Below, piece after piece: positions 2,007 to 37,834 of a stretch of DNA of 40,429 bases. The notes under the pieces are model-generated. The model had not been told where the DNA came from, searched no databases, and was given only the letters and a program-made list of their open reading frames with translations. The DNA lies in the IMG/VR virus record IMGVR_UViG_3300037515_000543, positions 1-40,429 of that record; one strand, 5' to 3'. Position 1 is the first letter of the stretch. Each line of letters opens with the position of its first letter. Source of the DNA: a virus. Its lineage: Duplodnaviria; Caudoviricetes. The position numbers and the translations under genes are program-made.

Positions 2007-2258
2007 GTTTTCCAGTTCACACCGCTGCCTAAACTCCAAGTCAGCATAAGCCTGCAACTCATCCACCTCTCCCAAACGAATCCCCTCCACCACCGCCTCT
2101 ACCCGGCTGCGTGCCTTCAGGCGCTTAAAAATCCCCGTCAGGTGGTTTTTGACCGTCCTCTCTTTATTCCCCAGCGCCCGCCCGATCTCCGCATTGCTGG
2201 CGCCGCCGGCCGCCAACTGTAACACGCGGCGCTGGGCAGGGGTGAGCAGCCAGGTCAT
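1995..2258 (-). CDS. Stand-alone LuxR/NarL-type HTH protein
   Basis: LTPAQRRVLQLAAGGASNAEIGRALGNKERTVKNHLTGIFKRL...SR matches the LuxR C-terminal pattern; ATGA overlap with the M23 gene. Confidence 0.9.
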   Translation of the reverse strand: MTWLLTPAQRRVLQLAAGGASNAEIGRALGNKERTVKNHLTGIFKRLKARSRVEAVVEGIRLGEVDELQAYADLEFRQRCELENKNP

Positions 2259-2734
2259 ATCAGCGGCTCTAGAAACGGCCACGGATCCATATAGCCCGCT
2301 GGCCAGCCCGGCAGCTGATACCCCTCCCGCTTCAGCGTCAAATGCAGGTGTGGGCCGCTGCTGTTACCCGTATTGCCGCTAATCCCCACCACATCCCCGG
2401 CAGAAACGGCCGTACCCACCACCGCCAGACTACCCGCCGCCGCGTGTGCATATAGCGTCGAATAGCCAGCCGCGTGCTGCACAATCACGTGCCAGCCATA
2501 AGCCGACGGCCCGCCGCTTCTGCGCTGGTCGCTGGCCCAAATGACCTCGCCAGAGGCAACGGCATAGTAAGGCGTGCCGAATGGGGCGGAAATATCAATC
2601 CCTTCGTGGCCGGGGAAACCAAACTTTTCGTAATTCTCTGGGTTGTCTCCAAAGCGCTGGGTGATGTATTTCTGGGTTGTGGGCCACGCCTGAAACTCAA
2701 ACGCGGCCCCGTTCAGTTTGGGTCCGTAAACCAC
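2255..2734 (-). CDS. M23 family peptidase (endolysin)
   Basis: HEGID (HxxxD), YAH and GNTGNSSGPHLH zinc motifs. Confidence 0.92.
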   Translation of the reverse strand: MVYGPKLNGAAFEFQAWPTTQKYITQRFGDNPENYEKFGFPGHEGIDISAPFGTPYYAVASGEVIWASDQRRSGGPSAYGWHVIVQHAAGYSTLYAHAAAGSLAVVGTAVSAGDVVGISGNTGNSSGPHLHLTLKREGYQLPGWPAGYMDPWPFLEPLI

Positions 2735-3858
2735 TTAACGTCATTCCAGGCGGGCACAACGGCATAATAGACCCGCCGCTCGCCGGTTCCCAGATGTTCA
2801 GCCGCCATTGCCGCCCGCTGCTTGCCGTCCGTGGGCGTATACCAGAATTCGGACTCAACCGGGGTAAAGCCATCAGCAAAAATCGCCGCCTGCAAAGCCG
2901 CGTTTGGGTTCAGGCTGATCGCCTGCCGGTTAATCGATTCGCTCCAAAGTTCACTTTGCCATGTCATAATGCTTACTCCATTTTTAATTGCCTGCGCTAG
3001 CTGCACCATCTCGGCGGCGGATAGCTCATACATCGGCCACCCGCCCGTTTGTCCAAAAGTAAAAAAGACGCTGCCTAAATAGCGGTTTTCGTGGCTGGCG
3101 TTCCATTCGGCCGTCTTTAATAGCTGGTACTCAACCACCTCATCTATGTACCGCGTCAGGTTGCCGCTCAAAACCTTGCTGCTTTTCCAGCCATCATAAA
3201 CACCCTGATACGGTCCGCCTTCGGTCGAAATCCAGCGGACTTTAATCCCCCGGCTCACAAAATCCTGATCCATGTAGACCCATCGGCCGCTGTGATAGCG
3301 CCAATCCTGCGGATCGCGCTGGCCGAAATCGTAATGGGTATAGTTGTGATAGCTCAGAATGTTGCCCGTGTTGGCCGCAATTTGGGCATAGCGAAAATCA
3401 ATATCGTTGCCAATGGCCGTGCTGGTGAGCGCCAGAGGGATGTCACGATAGCCCACAATCGACTTGCCCCGGTATTCACCATTCCATACGGCCGTTACCG
3501 CCTGAAGCCAGGTGATCACAAGTTGCCGCTGGGCCTCGCTGTCGCTACTGGCCACGTACTCATTCCAGTCCTTGATTACATCGATATAGCGCCAAAGCTC
3601 CTGTTCTTGCCAGGTGCCATCCACGAACTTGTTAAAATAGGCGCGCGCCTTTTCTTTTGCCGCTTCGTAATCAGGCGTAAAGTTTTGGTCTTCAATCTTT
3701 TTCCTAAAGACGGTCAACACGCCCGGATTATTCAGCTTGGCATCGCGCAGCATATGCAAATCGTCAACGGCTAAAAGTGGTGATTTGGCCGGTAAGAGCT
3801 TTACCGCTTCCAACCAATCAGGTATCGGCCGTTGGCCGTGAAATCCTAAAGCAGTCAT
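2713..3858 (-). CDS. Putative clan-A-like glycoside hydrolase with C-terminal accessory domain (second lysin)
   Basis: WNE (acid/base), SYHNY and STEGG (nucleophile) motifs; located in the lysis cassette. Confidence 0.55.
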   Translation of the reverse strand: MTALGFHGQRPIPDWLEAVKLLPAKSPLLAVDDLHMLRDAKLNNPGVLTVFRKKIEDQNFTPDYEAAKEKARAYFNKFVDGTWQEQELWRYIDVIKDWNEYVASSDSEAQRQLVITWLQAVTAVWNGEYRGKSIVGYRDIPLALTSTAIGNDIDFRYAQIAANTGNILSYHNYTHYDFGQRDPQDWRYHSGRWVYMDQDFVSRGIKVRWISTEGGPYQGVYDGWKSSKVLSGNLTRYIDEVVEYQLLKTAEWNASHENRYLGSVFFTFGQTGGWPMYELSAAEMVQLAQAIKNGVSIMTWQSELWSESINRQAISLNPNAALQAAIFADGFTPVESEFWYTPTDGKQRAAMAAEHLGTGERRVYYAVVPAWNDVKWFTDPN

Positions 3859-4373
3859 TATTCAATCTCCTCAATGCGTGTCATATCGGTGGCCCAATCC
3901 CACACCAGGCCATAGACCGGCTCATCTGTCAAAATATCTGTCGGAATTACCCAAAGCCCGTACCGCTCGTGAAAAAACGGCCGTCGATACCCCTCATCCC
4001 CAAAATTATCAAAGCAAGCCACCGCCCGATCCTCGCCGCCCCAGGTGAACGAAACGGCCGTAGTCCAACTCCACTCACCTTCATACAATTTTGTCCAACC
4101 CTGAATACAGCCAGCCACGCGCCATTCGTGCGCCGCGCTGGTGGGGTAGAGGTTGGCGTAGCGTTCCGGCTCTCCGTTGGCCTGACCTGCCCACGGCACA
4201 GGGTTGCCGTCGCTGTCGAAAAACCAATAGTTCGTCAGGCTCAGCGGCATTGTCTCAAGCGGCGGAACGGCCGTTACCGTTTCCACCGCGCCGCTGATTG
4301 CGAACAGGATACATACGGCCGTCTGGCAAGCGCTGACTATCAAACGATGACCCCGCCACTGGCCGCGAGCCAA
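3858..4373 (-). CDS. Hypothetical exported protein in the lysis module
   Basis: N-terminal hydrophobic segment; stop overlaps the next start. Confidence 0.6.
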   Translation of the reverse strand: MARGQWRGHRLIVSACQTAVCILFAISGAVETVTAVPPLETMPLSLTNYWFFDSDGNPVPWAGQANGEPERYANLYPTSAAHEWRVAGCIQGWTKLYEGEWSWTTAVSFTWGGEDRAVACFDNFGDEGYRRPFFHERYGLWVIPTDILTDEPVYGLVWDWATDMTRIEEIE

Positions 4374-4444
4374 AACCAGATGATAAAACCAACAAACAGC
4401 AGCACCAGTGCCGCCGCCAGAATAAGCAGGATTATGCGGATCAT
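4340..4444 (-). CDS. 34-aa single-TM membrane peptide
   Basis: MIRIILLILAAALVLLFVGFIIWFWLAASGGVIV; ATGA overlap with the holin stop. Confidence 0.6.
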   Translation of the reverse strand: MIRIILLILAAALVLLFVGFIIWFWLAASGGVIV

Positions 4445-4737
4445 GCCTTTTTCGTCAGCAGGTAGGTGCCCTGGTTGACGCCAATCGCTACGCCAATCAT
4501 CCCCAGCAGCTCCAAAACGCCGCGCGCGGTGCATTCCACGTACAGCACCAAATCGGCACAGGAGAGGCCGAAGAGCGCCCCGGCTGACAGCAGCAGTAAA
4601 ACTAGCACCACAAGCCGCTTCTGCACGGCCGTCAGCCCCTCGTAGCGCCCGGCAACCCCCGGAACGTATTCCAGCACCAAACTCAAAATCATACCTGCAA
4701 TTGCGCTCAAACTCAGTTCGATAGACATCGTTTTCAA
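4441..4737 (-). CDS. Putative holin (3 TM)
   Basis: Three hydrophobic helices, basic C-terminus, upstream of the lysins. Confidence 0.7.
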   Translation of the reverse strand: MKTMSIELSLSAIAGMILSLVLEYVPGVAGRYEGLTAVQKRLVVLVLLLLSAGALFGLSCADLVLYVECTARGVLELLGMIGVAIGVNQGTYLLTKKA

Positions 4738-4748
4738 TCTCCTATTTT

Positions 4749-5135
4749 CTATATCAGCGGCCAGTCATAATTCGGCCGTCTGGTCCTGCACTCATCCAAT
4801 AATTTGTAAAGCTCACTGCGGCGCTCCATATAGTCGATCAGCGCCCAGAGCTTCAAATCTTTGTTTTCACCTTCCAGATTTTCCCAATCCACCCCCAGGG
4901 CCATGCACAGGCTAATCACATCGGCATTGTTAAACGCCGCGTCCATGAGACGCTGCAAATATTTGCGGTCAACGAAGTAGCCCGTGTCCTTGTCTCGGCG
5001 CTTCGGTACGCCAATGGCTTGCCACCAGCGGCGCTGTTCGTCGATCTGCTGCTGCTGCTTTTGCAATTCGCCAGAGTGATTTTTTAGCAGCGCGGCAATC
5101 TGCCTGAAATCGCCGGTCCAAAAGCGCTTGATCAT
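4749..5135 (-). CDS. Protein with C-terminal effector-associated domain (EAD7-like)
   Basis: L..AF...DV..LCMALGVDWENLEGENK..K...LIDYMERR..L..LL..C...RP...W matches the EAD7 pattern as I recall it. Confidence 0.65.
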   Translation of the reverse strand: MIKRFWTGDFRQIAALLKNHSGELQKQQQQIDEQRRWWQAIGVPKRRDKDTGYFVDRKYLQRLMDAAFNNADVISLCMALGVDWENLEGENKDLKLWALIDYMERRSELYKLLDECRTRRPNYDWPLI

Positions 5136-5223
5136 AATTGCGCTCTTGGAGTGCCTCCCTCATGGATTTCAATTCGGTAATCAGTGCTGTAATGAGTTCA
5201 TCATTGCTCATGTTTTCATTCAT
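4969..5223 (-). CDS. Probable N-terminal half of the EAD7-like gene in another frame (frameshift near 5115-5127)
   Basis: Coupled to the upstream stop; protein-like helix MSNDELITALITELKSMREALQERNYDQALL, then non-protein-like sequence where the downstream frame begins. Confidence 0.5.
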   Translation of the reverse strand: MNENMSNDELITALITELKSMREALQERNYDQALLDRRFQADCRAAKKSLWRIAKAAAADRRTAPLVASHWRTEAPRQGHGLLR

Positions 5224-5551
5224 TGTCCCCGGCCGTTACTTCGTTTGCCTGCTGATTTTTCAGCGTCGATTCCAGCAACAGCACCCGCGCCTTTAGCTCT
5301 AAAATCTGGTCTTCTAGTTTGCGCACGTCAGTTTTACGCCGCTGCCAAAGCTCTTCATAGGCCACGGCCTTTGCCTCTGCATTGCCCAGGCGGTTGGTCA
5401 ATTCCTCCACCCGCTCCTGACACTGTTTCATTTTGACATAATCCAGGTCGGCAAACGCATTGATCATGGCCTTGTTTACGGCCGTATCCAACATCTCCTG
5501 AAACCCCGGAAAGATCTCTTTTTCTTCAGCCATCCTAAAATCCTTCTTCAC
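5216..5551 (-). CDS. Coiled-coil hypothetical protein
   Basis: Heptad-rich ORF in operon order. Confidence 0.7.
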   Translation of the reverse strand: MKKDFRMAEEKEIFPGFQEMLDTAVNKAMINAFADLDYVKMKQCQERVEELTNRLGNAEAKAVAYEELWQRRKTDVRKLEDQILELKARVLLLESTLKNQQANEVTAGDNE

Positions 5552-7415
5552 GCCGCGCCACCAAAAACTCCAACGAGGCCGGCGGCTCCTCGGGAACCGG
5601 CGTCAGCACATCCTCCATCACGTCATAGCCATTCTCCTCCAGTAAAAACGTTCTCACCCGGTCAACCTCACTGCCGAGGGTAGGGGGCAAATTGCGGATG
5701 TTCATTGTCTGCCCCGCCCGCGCCAACCATTTAGGCGCAATCGCCCCGGTTTGGTCCATCAAATAATCCGGCTGCAATTCACTGCGCGGCTTCACCACCC
5801 GGCCGTCTTCCAGCGCCGCATCCCTGTGCTTACCGGCCTGTGTGCTGCTGGTCGTGCTGGCGCTAATCACCCCGCGCCGCACAATGCCGTACTGCGCCTG
5901 GCTGGTGGCATCATCGGCCACGGCCGTGCGCAGCGTCCGGTTGTTGGCGTCCTGGTAGCTGGCATATACCGAATTTCGCAGCAGCTCCAGCGTGCTGTTG
6001 ACGGTCAATTCGTCGGCATCGATGGCCCAGATTTGGGAGTCGCTGCCCTTCGGCCGGAAATGGAGCTTTTGCCCTTCCCACACCCCCACTTCCCACAATC
6101 GCGGCGGGTCCTGGTTATCCCCTAGGCCCGCCAGTTTGGTGGCGATGTCGCCGGGCCAGGCGTCTTCGTATACCTCGTCGAGGAGGTCGAGGCCGGGGGA
6201 TTCGATGAGGGCGGTGGAGGCGGAGAGCTGGGCCGGGTTGGCGGCCGTTATGTGGTTCACCAGGTCGCTGATTATCTGATCGGCATAAATTGCGTGAGCC
6301 TGGACAAATTGAGTTGAGGTGTGGGCATTGGCAAAAGTGGCGGTAAATGTCGTGCTCGAATTTACCGCCTCCACCACTACCCGCTCGCGGTTGCTGCTGC
6401 CCGAGGCGATGTAAAGCGACTGCCCCACATACATCCCCGCCGTTGTGCCCACCGGGACAGTTTGCGACCCGGTTGATGTATTGGCCGTTAGCGCGGTATT
6501 CACCCGCCGAGCTGTGGATGTCACATTACGCAGGTTGGTGATTTTCAGATAGGTGTCCCCCGTTTCGCCCGTGTACGTTGCGCTGGCTGCGTTGAAAAAG
6601 ACCATGAACATCAGATTGTCTATCCCGGAAAAAGCTAAATGAACGCTTCCAGATTGCACTGAGCCGGTGCCCGATAGGAGCCATTCGGACGAATCAAAAA
6701 CCCAATCCGAATCGCGGCGCTGCAACCGGAAAGCCCAGCTTGACGATCCATTGACCTCATAGTCAAACTCGACCCCAACCACCTGACGCCCGCCGTTGTC
6801 AGGTGTGGTAAATCCAACGACCCCCTGGGAACCGCTGCTGCTGAATGTTTCGTTTTTGCGCGGCGCAATATAAATCCTGTTGTTATTATCAATTTCGTAT
6901 TTTCCTGGATTAAACGTGCTGTTGTCATCTCCCGTCACCACCCGCCACCCCGCCGTCCCACTCTTCGACCACAGCGCCGTATACGGCACATCAAACAGCG
7001 CCCGCCACGCACCAAACGCCGTCACCTGCAAGCCCGTCCCATCCTCGGCAATGACGACGGTCGGGTCCTCCACCCGGCCCTCCCACACCACGCCCGCGCC
7101 GTAATTCAACGACAGCCATTTCGCCTTGCCCTGCTCGGCAATGGCAAAAGCCAGCTCAAGCGGCATCGGCACAAAGCAGGTGAGGCTGCGGAAACCATGA
7201 CGGCCGTTGTCAATCACGCAGTCGGTCGCGTCCGAAAGGTCAGCAATCAGCGCGCCGCCGGGGGATTCGTAGAGTTGCAGTGCCAGCGGTATCGCCCCGC
7301 CACTGCTGGCTGGCACGGGGGCCACAACGGACGCCGGAAATAGCCCCGTCGTCACAAACGGGGTGATGCTTACCGGCGTCGCGCCAATGCCCAGGGTGAT
7401 AATTGATTCAGCCAT
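5535..7415 (-). CDS. Minor tail protein (tail tip/hub-like) with inserted beta-rich domain
   Basis: 626 aa; VWEGRV and SQAQYGIVRR segments typical of siphophage tail proteins; position after the TMP. Confidence 0.7.
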   Translation of the reverse strand: MAESIITLGIGATPVSITPFVTTGLFPASVVAPVPASSGGAIPLALQLYESPGGALIADLSDATDCVIDNGRHGFRSLTCFVPMPLELAFAIAEQGKAKWLSLNYGAGVVWEGRVEDPTVVIAEDGTGLQVTAFGAWRALFDVPYTALWSKSGTAGWRVVTGDDNSTFNPGKYEIDNNNRIYIAPRKNETFSSSGSQGVVGFTTPDNGGRQVVGVEFDYEVNGSSSWAFRLQRRDSDWVFDSSEWLLSGTGSVQSGSVHLAFSGIDNLMFMVFFNAASATYTGETGDTYLKITNLRNVTSTARRVNTALTANTSTGSQTVPVGTTAGMYVGQSLYIASGSSNRERVVVEAVNSSTTFTATFANAHTSTQFVQAHAIYADQIISDLVNHITAANPAQLSASTALIESPGLDLLDEVYEDAWPGDIATKLAGLGDNQDPPRLWEVGVWEGQKLHFRPKGSDSQIWAIDADELTVNSTLELLRNSVYASYQDANNRTLRTAVADDATSQAQYGIVRRGVISASTTSSTQAGKHRDAALEDGRVVKPRSELQPDYLMDQTGAIAPKWLARAGQTMNIRNLPPTLGSEVDRVRTFLLEENGYDVMEDVLTPVPEEPPASLEFLVARREEGF

Positions 7416-13760: not shown

Positions 13761-14270
13761 CTAATCTTTTTTTTCCTGCTCTGCTGCGTCCTCCGCCGTG
13801 CCGGAAATCTCACGCACCGTTTTAACGATTAAGTTGGTCACCGCATTGGCCATGCGGCCTAGTTTTTCTTCAACTTCACTGTGCTTCAGGCCGTCACCGC
13901 GCAGCACGTCATAAAGGCGCGTCAGCTCGCTTTCTGGCCAGACGATGTACGGCTCGCCGTCCTCTGGCAGGTCAGCAAAAGCAGCTTCCAGCAAACGGCC
14001 GTTTTCCGCGTCCGTCACCAGGCATTCAATCATCATTTTGAGCGGGGCATCTTTCGGCATACTGGCCAAATCCACATCCATAGATTTATCGGCATAGACG
14101 CGGGTTTTGCCCTTTGGGCCGATGGCGATCTTTTGCTGTTTAGCCGTGGAGAGGTCGCAGGCGTACACAATGCCGCTGTAACCCACGTCGGCCAGGTCAA
14201 TCCGGGCCACGCGCCGCTGTTCGGCCAGGTTCAGAAAATCGACGGCGCTTAATGTCACCTTTTCACTCAT
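13761..14270 (-). CDS. Tail assembly chaperone G-like
   Basis: Between tail tube and TMP; ends EKKD at the A8G run. Confidence 0.85.
   Translation of the reverse strand: MSEKVTLSAVDFLNLAEQRRVARIDLADVGYSGIVYACDLSTAKQQKIAIGPKGKTRVYADKSMDVDLASMPKDAPLKMMIECLVTDAENGRLLEAAFADLPEDGEPYIVWPESELTRLYDVLRGDGLKHSEVEEKLGRMANAVTNLIVKTVREISGTAEDAAEQEKKD
13766..13775 (-). other. Programmed -1 frameshift slippery site (GAAAAAAAAG, containing A AAA AAG)
   Basis: GAA AAA AAA GAT TAG; the -1 frame reads R-L-V-E-N-K-N-L-M-L-A-H into the next ORF. Confidence 0.85.
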
Positions 14271-28305: not shown

Positions 28306-28674
28306 TTGCGCGTCCTCAAAATCTACCACCGAGGCAGCGGCTACGGCCGTGTGCTCACCGACGCCGAGCCCGAACACCATCTGGGTGATTTTATCCGGCT
28401 GGAATCGGCCGCCCTGCCCGACCTGGCCCAGCTGGCGGCCGATGTGCTGGGGGATGAGCAGCCGCTGCTGCCGCCGCAGCACCAGCGCAATCTGGCGCGG
28501 TGGATTTTGCGTCATGGTTGTGAGAGGTGGGGAGAACGGCCGTTTCACGCTTCGCGCACATACCCCAACCACCCGTCATTATCCCGCGCCCCTGGTGGCA
28601 CAAATTCCATTTGCAGCGCCTCAAACACATCCCCCTCCTCTGCTGTGGGGATGAGCTGGCGCTGCCAGGTGTAG
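28306..28674 (+). CDS. Possible inverted (plus-strand) gene or gene remnant
   Basis: AAGGAG SD, TTG start, phage-like codons and protein-like sequence up to ~28540; 3' end runs antisense into PolX. Confidence 0.4.
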   Translation: MRVLKIYHRGSGYGRVLTDAEPEHHLGDFIRLESAALPDLAQLAADVLGDEQPLLPPQHQRNLARWILRHGCERWGERPFHASRTYPNHPSLSRAPGGTNSICSASNTSPSSAVGMSWRCQV

Positions 28675-29138
28675 AGCAGGCCGCCGATAAACTTAACACT
28701 CACCTGCGGGGCACGGGTGCGCATCAGCCACATATTAAAATCGTGGCTGCCGGTGCGAATGGTAAAGACGCTGCCCCAATGGGCCGGGGATTCCGGCATG
28801 AAGAGATCGACGGAGTAACGGCCGTATTGAAACTGGATATATTTCTGGACCGTCTTTTTCTTTGGGTCGTAGCCGCCTTTGATGATATGCACCCGCTTTT
28901 CCAGCAGAAACGCCTCGACGGACGTAAGGCCGGGCACAGTGATGCCCAGCAGGTCAGTTTGGCGCATTGGCAGGCACACAATCTCAATATCGCCAATTTG
29001 CGGCCGCTGGCGGCGGATGCTGCCTGCTACGGCAATGCGGTGGCAAAATGGGTTCAGCGCTTCGAGAATGTGCCCGGCCGTTTTCTGGGCGGCGGCGAGC
29101 GGGGTTTTGGGGGTGGCGCTCATTACAGCCACCGCCAC
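28545..29138 (-). CDS. polX: Minimal family X DNA polymerase-like nucleotidyltransferase (no PHP domain)
   Basis: VAGSIRR...IGDIEIV, VDLF, IRTGSHDFN, EEGDVFEALQMEFVPP..R motifs. Confidence 0.88.
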   Translation of the reverse strand: MAVAVMSATPKTPLAAAQKTAGHILEALNPFCHRIAVAGSIRRQRPQIGDIEIVCLPMRQTDLLGITVPGLTSVEAFLLEKRVHIIKGGYDPKKKTVQKYIQFQYGRYSVDLFMPESPAHWGSVFTIRTGSHDFNMWLMRTRAPQVSVKFIGGLLYTWQRQLIPTAEEGDVFEALQMEFVPPGARDNDGWLGYVREA

Positions 29139-37126: not shown

Positions 37127-37834
37127 TTATTGTCTCCACGCGCTTATGATGTTGCGGCAGCTGCGCGCGAAAGCCTCGTAGGGTGCGTCTGCCGCCCCGC
37201 TTCCGTCACCCCATTTGCGGCCGTCGTAATCAACCAAGCTGGGCCAGAATCCGCGCTGCGTAGTCTTACATGGGTCAAAAAATGAATTAAACTGAGTAGC
37301 CATTTTTAGGTGCATATTTCCATCTACACTCACCACATCGGCGAAGTTTCGCATTTCGCTGTGTATCTGCATTTGCCGCTGCGGGGATCCGCCTAGCAGA
37401 TGTACGGGCCATCCAGAAAACTCCAGCATGGGCACATCTGTTTTGCCGTGCCGGGTAGGAACTGAATACCCAAGCACGACTCGCCGGGAATTGATGTGCC
37501 GGGGAATTTTTTTGATCGTGCCAGGAACCTTTGGGATCAACAGTATCGACTCCCGAACATGCTCGGCAATTTCCTCCGCCCGTAGCATGATCTCTTGGTA
37601 TCCACGCCCGGCGTGCCAGTCATGTACTGATGCCATAGTTGGTTGGTGCCGCCGCAATTTTGAAACGTAATCCCACTGGTTTGGCGGCCGCTCTGGGTGT
37701 AAATCAACAAAGTGAAGGTCATAGTAAACAGTTCCTGGCATTTGCGCGCCGTACAGGAATCCCGCATCAATAGCGATTTGCGCAAATCTCTTATTTCCGT
37801 TGGCACAGTAAATCAGCTCAAGGTCAGTCGCCAC
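37127..37834 (-). CDS. TGT/DpdA-like TIM-barrel protein (tentatively DUF6610-like)
   Basis: VHLLGGS and VSVDGN motifs resemble transglycosylase H.LG and D-S motifs. Confidence 0.5.
   Translation of the reverse strand: MATDLELIYCANGNKRFAQIAIDAGFLYGAQMPGTVYYDLHFVDLHPERPPNQWDYVSKLRRHQPTMASVHDWHAGRGYQEIMLRAEEIAEHVRESILLIPKVPGTIKKIPRHINSRRVVLGYSVPTRHGKTDVPMLEFSGWPVHLLGGSPQRQMQIHSEMRNFADVVSVDGNMHLKMATQFNSFFDPCKTTQRGFWPSLVDYDGRKWGDGSGAADAPYEAFARSCRNIISAWRQ

What the first reader, a model, noticed from the sequence alone, without database searches (positions are those of the whole stretch)
4749..5223. Phage-encoded EAD7-like domain beside the holin: candidate decoy of host conflict systems
Seen: the C-terminal ~70 aa (LQRLMDAAFNNADVISLCMALGVDWENLEGENKDLKLWALIDYMERRSELYKLLDECRTRRPNYDW) follow a short coiled coil and have no enzyme domain. 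Known, from recall: effector-associated domains of this pattern are homotypic adaptors in ternary conflict systems of multicellular bacteria, notably Chloroflexota. Inference: a stand-alone phage copy could jam host EAD-EAD assembly (anti-defence mimicry) or trigger a host effector at lysis. It also supports a Chloroflexota host.
Basis: partly seen in the sequence, partly recalled or inferred. Interest (0 to 1): 0.72.

Follow-up and report, generated by a model that had tools for sequence, protein, structure and literature searches.

The report
Frameshift-made phage death-fold (EAD7) adaptor
An uncultured phage carries, between its tail and lysis genes, a copy of the bacterial immune docking domain EAD7 written in a second reading frame; it is likely made only when some ribosomes slip one base forward at a conserved UUU-C site, giving a small amount of a coiled-coil protein that would jam the host's self-destruct defence late in infection.

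Summary
The EAD7 domain is real (Pfam PF19960, 57 bits against a cut-off of 32; CARD-like model). But 4749-5223 is not one ORF. A helical ORF A (5223-4969) overlaps the EAD7 frame at +1. This is no assembly error: contigs from four other runs span it without gaps, and silent changes switch from frame A to frame B across it. Four more lineages (32-43% identical) share the layout with the junction at UUU-C; a fifth has UUU-U. A hairpin is predicted just upstream. Two further lineages reach EAD7 in the -1 frame at a run of nine A. All 5 phages fetched by neighbouring genes, blind to EAD7, carry a split gene. Best reading: a programmed +1 frameshift makes a minor 157-aa coiled-coil-EAD7 protein (about 85%); it most likely works as a late decoy of host EAD7 signalling, like phage pCARD (about 45%). 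Host and function are untested. The scan has already noted phage EAD7 genes and the A9/-1 route on other DNA; I found no note or paper on the +1 route for this gene.

The parts
4969..5223 (-). ORF A, 84 aa: 39-residue helical start ending ...DRRF, then a 45-residue unconserved tail (the short product)
   Evidence: start overlaps the upstream gene's stop; silent third-position changes at 5128-5191; tail length 17-47 codons across lineages
5106..5109 (-). Predicted +1 shift site UUU-C (Phe39; tRNA-Phe would re-pair from UUU to UUC)
   Evidence: only run of four invariant columns in the 6-row DNA alignment; conservation crosses from frame A to frame B here
5117..5150 (-). Predicted 11-bp hairpin (5150-5140 with 5127-5117) ending 7 nt before the UUU; its loop holds the frame-B AUG at 5135
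   Evidence: same register with different letters in L004; the three nearby variants keep it (two in the loop, one C-G to U-G)
5154..5160 (-). Shine-Dalgarno-like AGGGAGG just 5' of the hairpin (possible co-stimulator)
   Evidence: strong in window and L007, moderate in L002, absent in L004, L008, L013
4749..5135 (-). ORF B as gene callers call it (128 aa); codons from 5105 on would form the C-terminal 118 aa of the 157-aa shifted product
   Evidence: 12 of 13 changes in 4905-5019 are silent third positions of this frame
5013..5108 (-). Coiled-coil helix of frame B (residues 10-41), predicted to self-associate as a trimer
   Evidence: AF2; complex model score 0.66 against best control 0.00
4980..4988 (-). 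Conserved DTG linker motif
   Evidence: also in the -1 lineages and in the unsplit protein P0085
4773..4958 (-). EAD7 domain (Pfam PF19960), CARD/death-like fold
5216..5551 (-). Upstream coiled-coil-like gene whose stop overlaps the start of ORF A; a similar gene precedes the split gene in L011, L012, L019, L020 and L007 (by eye)
4441..4737 (-). Holin-like membrane protein (three hydrophobic segments; no family hit)
2255..4373 (-). Downstream lysis-like genes: 171-aa conserved protein, 381-aa protein without family hit, M23 peptidase
5535..7415 (-). 626-aa gene at the end of the tail module, used to fetch relatives blind to EAD7

Best explanation
This late phage gene is written in two overlapping frames, a short helical ORF A and a +1 frame that holds a coiled coil, a DTG linker and an EAD7 death-fold domain; it is likely decoded by a programmed +1 ribosomal slip at UUU-C, and the minor 157-aa product would act as a decoy that binds host EAD7-bearing sensors or effectors and delays host suicide until the lysis genes fire. 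Shown: two frames, EAD7 match, conserved junction, switch of selection at the junction. Predicted: the upstream hairpin (with an SD-like site in half the lineages) stimulates the slip as it refolds behind the ribosome; the coil trimerises. Inferred: most ribosomes make only the short chain, so EAD7 is kept scarce, and in mixed coils most oligomers would show one EAD7, which caps rather than seeds host death-fold assemblies. My odds: recoding 0.85, decoy given recoding about 0.5.
For: Not an error: contigs of 4 of 4 other runs (X2-X5, 95-99% alike) cross the junction with 0 gaps. Of 19 listed changes in 4905-5214, 12 of 13 downstream are silent third positions of frame B (p 2e-5) and 5 of 6 upstream are silent third positions of frame A (p 0.018); the five inside the overlap (4977-5019) all alter A's tail. 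L008 against L009: 21 of 21 differences after the site are silent in B, including a double change that keeps Ser in the first shifted codon. Five homologous lineages have UUU-C at the junction and L013 has UUU-U; mean BLOSUM62 per codon is A 1.44 / B -0.21 before the Phe and A 0.16 / B 1.37 after it. In 11 window genes only 12 of 202 Phe codons are UUU-C, and C after UUU is under-used (12 of 115 against 21%, p 0.002). Called homologues without DNA show Phe exactly 28 residues before the conserved Trp in 3 of 4 clusters that reach that far. The -51..-4 window folds best of 25 windows (combined z -5.8; -5.1 against a synonymous-codon null); upstream hairpins stimulate +1 shifts on 70S ribosomes in vitro (PMC6321510 sections 2.1, 3.1); P-site slip on UUU-C is established for PA-X (PMC3498833). 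Blind test: 5 of 5 phages fetched by neighbouring genes carry EAD7 in a split gene; L011/L012/L019 and L020 use the -1 frame at exactly nine A with GAGG 7 nt before the heptamer, and selection switches frame there too (L011 vs L019, Fisher p 8e-6). An unsplit coil-DTG-EAD7 protein exists (P0085). Function: CARD-like model (best Z 7.8 NOD1 CARD, rmsd 2.7, 69 aligned; Z 7.4 bacterial CARD 8ss1, rmsd 2.2, 72 aligned); pCARD precedent; host-type EAD7 on nSTAND1, TIR, SEFIR, CHAT, FGS proteins; coil self-association 0.66 against control 0.00, runs agree in at least 52% of contacts, pLDDT at least 74; the mark was reached by 20 of 30 solved pairs and 1 of 23 single chains, and this three-copy job is unlike that calibration.
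Against: No RNA or protein data. A frame-B start codon sits 9 codons before the Phe in the window, L004 and L008/L009 (and in called P0160, P0025), so separate initiation is not excluded. UUU-C alone is not enough: it also occurs in frame later in L002 and L004. There is no shared slow A-site codon or stop (CAG, CGA, CGC, CUC, UGU), while the published hairpin effect needed RF2 to be absent. The hairpin window was picked after seeing two cases, is significant alone in only 3 of 6 lineages (p 0.011, 0.001, 0.013; others 0.089, 0.25, 0.31) and shows no covariation in a fixed register over 7 rows (447 of 500 shuffles as high). L011 against L012 after the A run is uninformative (2 silent in A, 1 in B, of 7). 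Structural Z values are under 8 and Foldseek found nothing at E <= 0.001. A late, lysis-linked position and a trimeric display fit a trigger as well as a decoy; pCARD lies beside rIIAB, not in a lysis module.
Confidence: 0.45

Rival explanations
1. Same frameshift, opposite use: the trimeric coil clusters three EAD7 domains and seeds host death-fold assembly, so the phage fires a host effector (TIR, protease, pore former) to help or time lysis; the shift keeps this trigger scarce until late.
For: Position beside holin-like and peptidoglycan-hydrolase-like genes in the window and relatives; predicted trimer; death-fold signalling works by oligomerisation (PMC7159879 section on EADs); low output suits a toxic product.
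Against: Premature host death costs the phage progeny; the phage has its own lysis-like genes; the one tested phage death-fold-only protein is an inhibitor.
Confidence: 0.25
2. Two separate overlapping genes: ORF B starts at its own AUG (5135), perhaps gated by the hairpin, and makes a 128-aa coil-EAD7 protein; no ribosome changes frame.
For: A start codon lies 9 codons before the Phe in 3 of 6 +1 lineages with DNA; databases call ORF B this way; in the -1 lineages A's UGA overlaps an NUG of frame B.
Against: In L007 that start is followed by a stop in frame B, and L002 and L013 lack it; the nine residues before the Phe are not conserved in frame B but are in frame A; the site before AUG 5135 pairs weakly with the anti-SD (-2.1 against -7.3 for the holin-like gene); A's stop is 164 nt downstream, too far for usual reinitiation (own knowledge); the start-codon pattern follows from A's conserved Asp codon.
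Confidence: 0.12
3. The two products are virion or assembly parts: short and long chains co-assemble in a fixed ratio, as lambda gpG/gpGT do or as frameshift-added Ig domains do on capsid and tail proteins, and EAD7 is carried in the particle and delivered early.
For: Gene follows the tail module directly; ratio-setting frameshifts in either direction are common in phage structural genes (PMC5009743 passages).
Against: The short chain ends in an unconserved tail; the gene moves among holin-like genes in relatives; the window already has its own chaperone pair with a -1 site; no structural family hit.
Confidence: 0.12
4. A dead gene: an old one-base indel broke a coil-EAD7 gene, or the split is an assembly error.
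For: An unsplit form exists (P0085).
Against: Gap-free contigs in four other runs; both halves under purifying selection; the same junction kept across 32-43% identity; independent -1 junctions in two other lineages.
Confidence: 0.03

Closest known systems
EAD7 (Pfam PF19960), effector-associated domain of NTP-dependent conflict systems (Kaur et al. 2020, PMC7159879; 2021, PMC8195603)
   Same: Full-length profile match over the cut-off; small, all-helical, non-enzymatic, at a protein end.
   Different: Single copy in a phage genome; fused to a coiled coil, not to a core component or effector; reached by a frameshift.
Phage CARD-only protein pCARD of Acinetobacter phage 133 (PMC10312443)
   Same: Phage-encoded death-fold domain with no enzyme; my model resembles the Azospirillum bacterial CARD of that paper (8ss1, Z 7.4).
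   Different: Different Pfam family and presumably different target; coiled-coil stalk; lysis module instead of rIIAB; recoded expression; activity here untested.
+1 shift at UUU-C (influenza PA-X type UCC_UUU_CGU, PMC3498833)
   Same: P-site Phe on UUU followed by C, internal to an ORF, no stop at the site.
   Different: Bacterial ribosome; the CGN A-site codon is present in only 2 of 6 lineages; a 5' hairpin is predicted instead.
Lambda gpG/gpGT and Listeria phage PSA/A118 +1 shifts (PMC5009743)
   Same: One phage gene, short and long product, direction of shift differs between relatives.
   Different: Not a tail chaperone, capsid or tail protein; the added domain is a host-type immune adaptor; Listeria sites are CCC-U.
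A9 slippage (Thermus dnaX) and A_AAA_AAG -1 shift (E. coli dnaX)
   Same: Relatives L011, L012, L019 and L020 have exactly nine A with an SD-like GAGG upstream.
   Different: Applies to the relatives, not the window; polymerase slippage and ribosomal -1 shift cannot be told apart from sequence.

Membership tests
EAD7 domain (PF19960) | Profile match above the gathering score | tested here: met
   57.1 bits against 32, positions 1-62 of 62; 18 of 18 further EAD-frame proteins scanned also pass
EAD7 domain (PF19960) | Small all-alpha domain without enzymatic features | tested here: met
   AF2 model, helices 57-67, 70-80, 92-105, 109-119, pLDDT 87-91 in blocks 61-120
EAD-coupled ternary conflict system | One EAD copy on a core component and another on an effector, usually in the same operon | tested here: not met
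   One EAD7 match in the whole 40.4-kb record; neighbours are tail and lysis-like genes. The domain is EAD7; the locus is not such a system
EAD7 domain (PF19960) | Homotypic EAD-EAD binding | not tested
   No host partner is known; the one complex job addressed self-association of ORF B
Phage death-fold-only inhibitors (pCARD type) | CARD/death-like fold | tested here: inconclusive
   CARD and death domains fill the list, best Z 7.8, under the tool's mark of 8; Foldseek no hit at E <= 0.001
Phage death-fold-only inhibitors (pCARD type) | Suppresses a host defence system | not testable with these tools
   Needs a bench assay
+1 programmed frameshift at UUU-C | In-frame UUU-C at the point where coding constraint moves to the +1 frame, conserved across lineages | tested here: met
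   5 of 5 homologous lineages UUU-C, L013 UUU-U
+1 programmed frameshift at UUU-C | Slow CGN codon in the A site (PA-X motif) | tested here: not met
   Window has CAG; CGN only in L002 and L004
+1 programmed frameshift at UUU-C | Trans-frame peptide or reporter evidence | not testable with these tools
   No RNA holder listed; no proteomics
Lambda gpG/gpGT tail chaperone frameshift | Gene between tail tube and tape measure | tested here: not met
   That pair is separate, at 14270-13414
Holin (neighbour 4441-4737) | Small multi-TM protein beside an endolysin; family match | tested here: inconclusive
   Three hydrophobic segments; no family hit

The most novel reading that the evidence does not exclude
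A phage family has independently wired a host death-fold adaptor onto a late coiled-coil gene by two different recoding devices, a hairpin-driven +1 slip at UUU-C and an A9 -1 slip, because the valency of EAD7 on the trimer sets whether host suicide is blocked or fired; the hairpin would be a natural case of a refolding 5' stem driving +1 frameshifting on bacterial ribosomes, so far shown with designed reporters.
Probability: 0.25. Interest if true: 0.88.

Novelty: new variant of a known kind. Interest (0 to 1): 0.72.

Why it matters
EADs are predicted adaptors of a large class of bacterial immune systems whose EAD-EAD coupling was proposed from genomics. A phage gene that keeps EAD7 under selection is indirect evidence that these systems act against phage, and offers a ready inhibitor or activator to test the model. 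The gene is also mis-annotated in every database entry I saw (called from a chance start in the second frame), and it supplies a short natural cassette to test whether a 5' hairpin drives +1 shifting at an internal UUU-C without a stop codon.

Tried and rejected
Assembly error and pseudogene: rejected. Downstream stimulatory RNA structure: none in 7 +1 loci (z from +0.9 to -1.2) or 4 -1 loci (best z -1.7). Fixed-register covariation of the hairpin over 7 rows: not above shuffles. SD directly before the slip site as in prfB: not seen; an SD-like site about 50 nt upstream is in 3 of 6 lineages only. No match of ORF B in 50,697 phage or 72,556 plasmid records, PHROGs, NCBIfam or PADLOC. No RNA holder listed. 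Scans that returned nothing new; word-index searches were shallow. In the three-copy model no confident contact involved the EAD7 part; that is no evidence on EAD-EAD binding. The trimer motif R-h-x-x-h-E (abstract of PMC3653964) spans the junction only in L002 and occurs in frame in L011/L012/L019; it is incomplete in the window, so I give it little weight. No broad survey of EAD7 genes over all viral contigs and no language-model look-alike search were done, so the family's extent and the share of +1, -1 and unsplit forms stay open.

Full report
Observation. The window is a whole virus record with direct terminal repeats (127 bp) and siphovirus-type head and tail genes. An AF2 model shows a helix at 10-41, a loose linker and a helical domain at 57-119. 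CARD and death domains fill the structural list, best Z 7.8 (NOD1 CARD, rmsd 2.7, 69 aligned) and 7.4 for the bacterial CARD 8ss1; these are under the tool's mark of 8 and Foldseek gave nothing significant.

The split is real and selected. Contigs from four other runs, 95-99% alike, cross the overlap with no gap (X1 may be the source and is left out). Of the 21 variant rows, 19 fall in 4905-5214 and 2 in the upstream gene. Downstream (4905-5019), 12 of 13 are silent third positions of frame B; upstream (5128-5214), 5 of 6 are silent third positions of frame A. The tool's per-contig mismatch counts exceed the listed rows by 1-4 for several contigs, so the list is not complete.

Relatives. A profile-free search of 1.84 billion proteins gave 1,400 hits at E <= 0.001; of the 150 listed, six short proteins aligned over coil and domain. 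DNA was found for four further lineages, 32-43% identical to the window in frame B: L001-L003/L005/L006 (one a complete 49-kb phage), L004, L007 and L008/L009 (the last three are phage-like by gene content, not classed as viral by a call). Each has a homologous ORF A that overlaps the EAD7 frame at +1, and each junction is an Arg or Gln codon followed by UUU-C. Reading that word as one Phe step gives a single open frame of 157 aa in the window and 160-161 aa in L007, L008 and L009; in L002 and L004 a second in-frame UUU-C further on breaks this mechanical reading, which shows that the word alone is not the signal. Anchored on the Phe, conservation is in frame A before it and in frame B after it (L013 left out as its ORF A does not align). 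A's tail after the Phe is 17-47 codons and unconserved. UUU-C is rare in this phage's genes (12 of 202 Phe codons) and under-used.

Blind test. Phages fetched with the neighbouring tail gene (3 loci) and the 171-aa gene (5 loci, 2 new) all hold EAD7 over the cut-off, 5 of 5, and all are split. L013 is +1 at AAA-UUU-U. L011, L012, L019 and the unrelated L020 have EAD7 in the -1 frame, which opens at a run of exactly nine A with GAGG 7 nt before the heptamer. In L011 against L019, silent changes favour frame A before the run (27 to 1) and frame B after it (8 to 2); L011 against L012 is uninformative there. Nine A is also the classic polymerase slippage signal (PMC5009743, passages). So six lineages use +1, two use -1, and one protein without DNA context, P0085, appears unsplit.

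Stimulator. No downstream structure stands out. The 48 nt ending just before the E-site codon fold best of 25 windows (combined z -5.8 over six lineages; -5.1 against a synonymous null). The window and L004 have 11-bp stems in one register; of their 10 shared pairs four differ on both sides and one on one side (read). But the window was chosen after seeing these two, only 3 of 6 lineages are significant alone, and a fixed register fails over all 7 rows. PMC6321510 (abstract, sections 2.1 and 3.1) shows that a refolding 5' hairpin stimulates +1 shifting on 70S ribosomes, at a stop codon and only without RF2; here there is no stop, so the drive is not fully explained. An SD-like site precedes the hairpin in 3 of 6 lineages, a lead I took from scan note e1-3660598. 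P-site slip on UUU-C is shown for PA-X at about 1% (PMC3498833, abstract and passages).

Function. Three copies of ORF B residues 10-128 are modelled as a bundle through the coil (score 0.66, best control 0.00, contact agreement at least 52%, pLDDT at least 74; 20 of 30 solved pairs and 1 of 23 single chains reach the mark, and a three-copy job is outside that calibration). Among 26 longer EAD7 hits that I scanned, several carry nSTAND1 or other NTPases, TIR, SEFIR, CHAT or FGS domains. Kaur et al. propose EADs as homotypic adaptors (PMC7159879, passages and the EAD section; PMC8195603, passages). A phage CARD-only protein lowers gasdermin defence (PMC10312443, passages). I infer a late decoy, co-expressed with the structural proteins that STAND sensors often detect (own knowledge), and kept scarce by the shift. 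A lysis trigger remains a serious rival, and nothing here tests either.

Host. Not established.

Novelty. ORF B has no match among cultured phages or plasmids. Paper searches for EAD7 or effector-associated domains with phage terms returned 3, 5, 1 and 8 papers and one for UUU CGN frameshifting in phage returned 0; beyond the papers named above I saw listings only, and no title or abstract start describes a phage EAD7 gene. The library lacks most subscription journals. This scan has noted phage EAD7 genes in lysis cassettes, several behind an A9 or -1 shift, and +1 UUU-C sites in other phage genes; two look-ups found no note that joins EAD7 to a +1 site. Verdict: real, a new variant of known kinds (viral death-fold mimic plus ratio-setting frameshift), interest 0.72.

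Noticed in passing
window 13766-13776 (- strand), genes 14270-13761 and 13746-13414: Tail assembly chaperone pair with GAA AAA AAA G just before the stop; the -1 frame runs into the Phage_tail_T gene. Ordinary gpG/gpGT-type site.
   Followed up: partly
window 5020-5127: No listed variant in 108 nt across four related contigs, against 15 variable sites in the 315 nt around it (p about 0.024 for the largest gap, post hoc). It covers the 3' hairpin arm and slip site but also about 85 nt beyond, where no structure was found. Unexplained.
   Followed up: partly
L020:5311-5340 and window 5223-5194: The ORF A starts are alike (7 of 10 residues) although L020 shifts -1 at A9 and the window +1 at UUU-C, which hints at exchange of the recoding cassette within one gene family.
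   Followed up: no
L004:2004-2999: A membrane histidine kinase gene directly follows the EAD7 gene in this phage-like contig.
   Followed up: no
L002:5426-5864 and 6628-6927: Small genes inserted around the split gene; weak hits to antitoxin TumA and HicB-like families, below cut-off: possible toxin-antitoxin modules in the lysis region.
   Followed up: partly
window 3858-4373: 171-aa protein with a hydrophobic start, 60-79% conserved in five related phages beside the lysis genes, no Pfam, PHROG or NCBIfam hit.
   Followed up: no
window 2713-3858: 381-aa endolysin-position protein with no family hit; relatives swap this gene for unrelated-looking long hydrolase-like genes.
   Followed up: no
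window 28545-29138 and 37127-37834: DNA polymerase beta thumb domain protein and DUF6610 protein.
   Followed up: no
proteins P0004, P0008, P0010, P0015, P0017-P0019: Proteins made largely of three to five tandem EAD7 domains: possible host scaffolds or sinks.
   Followed up: no
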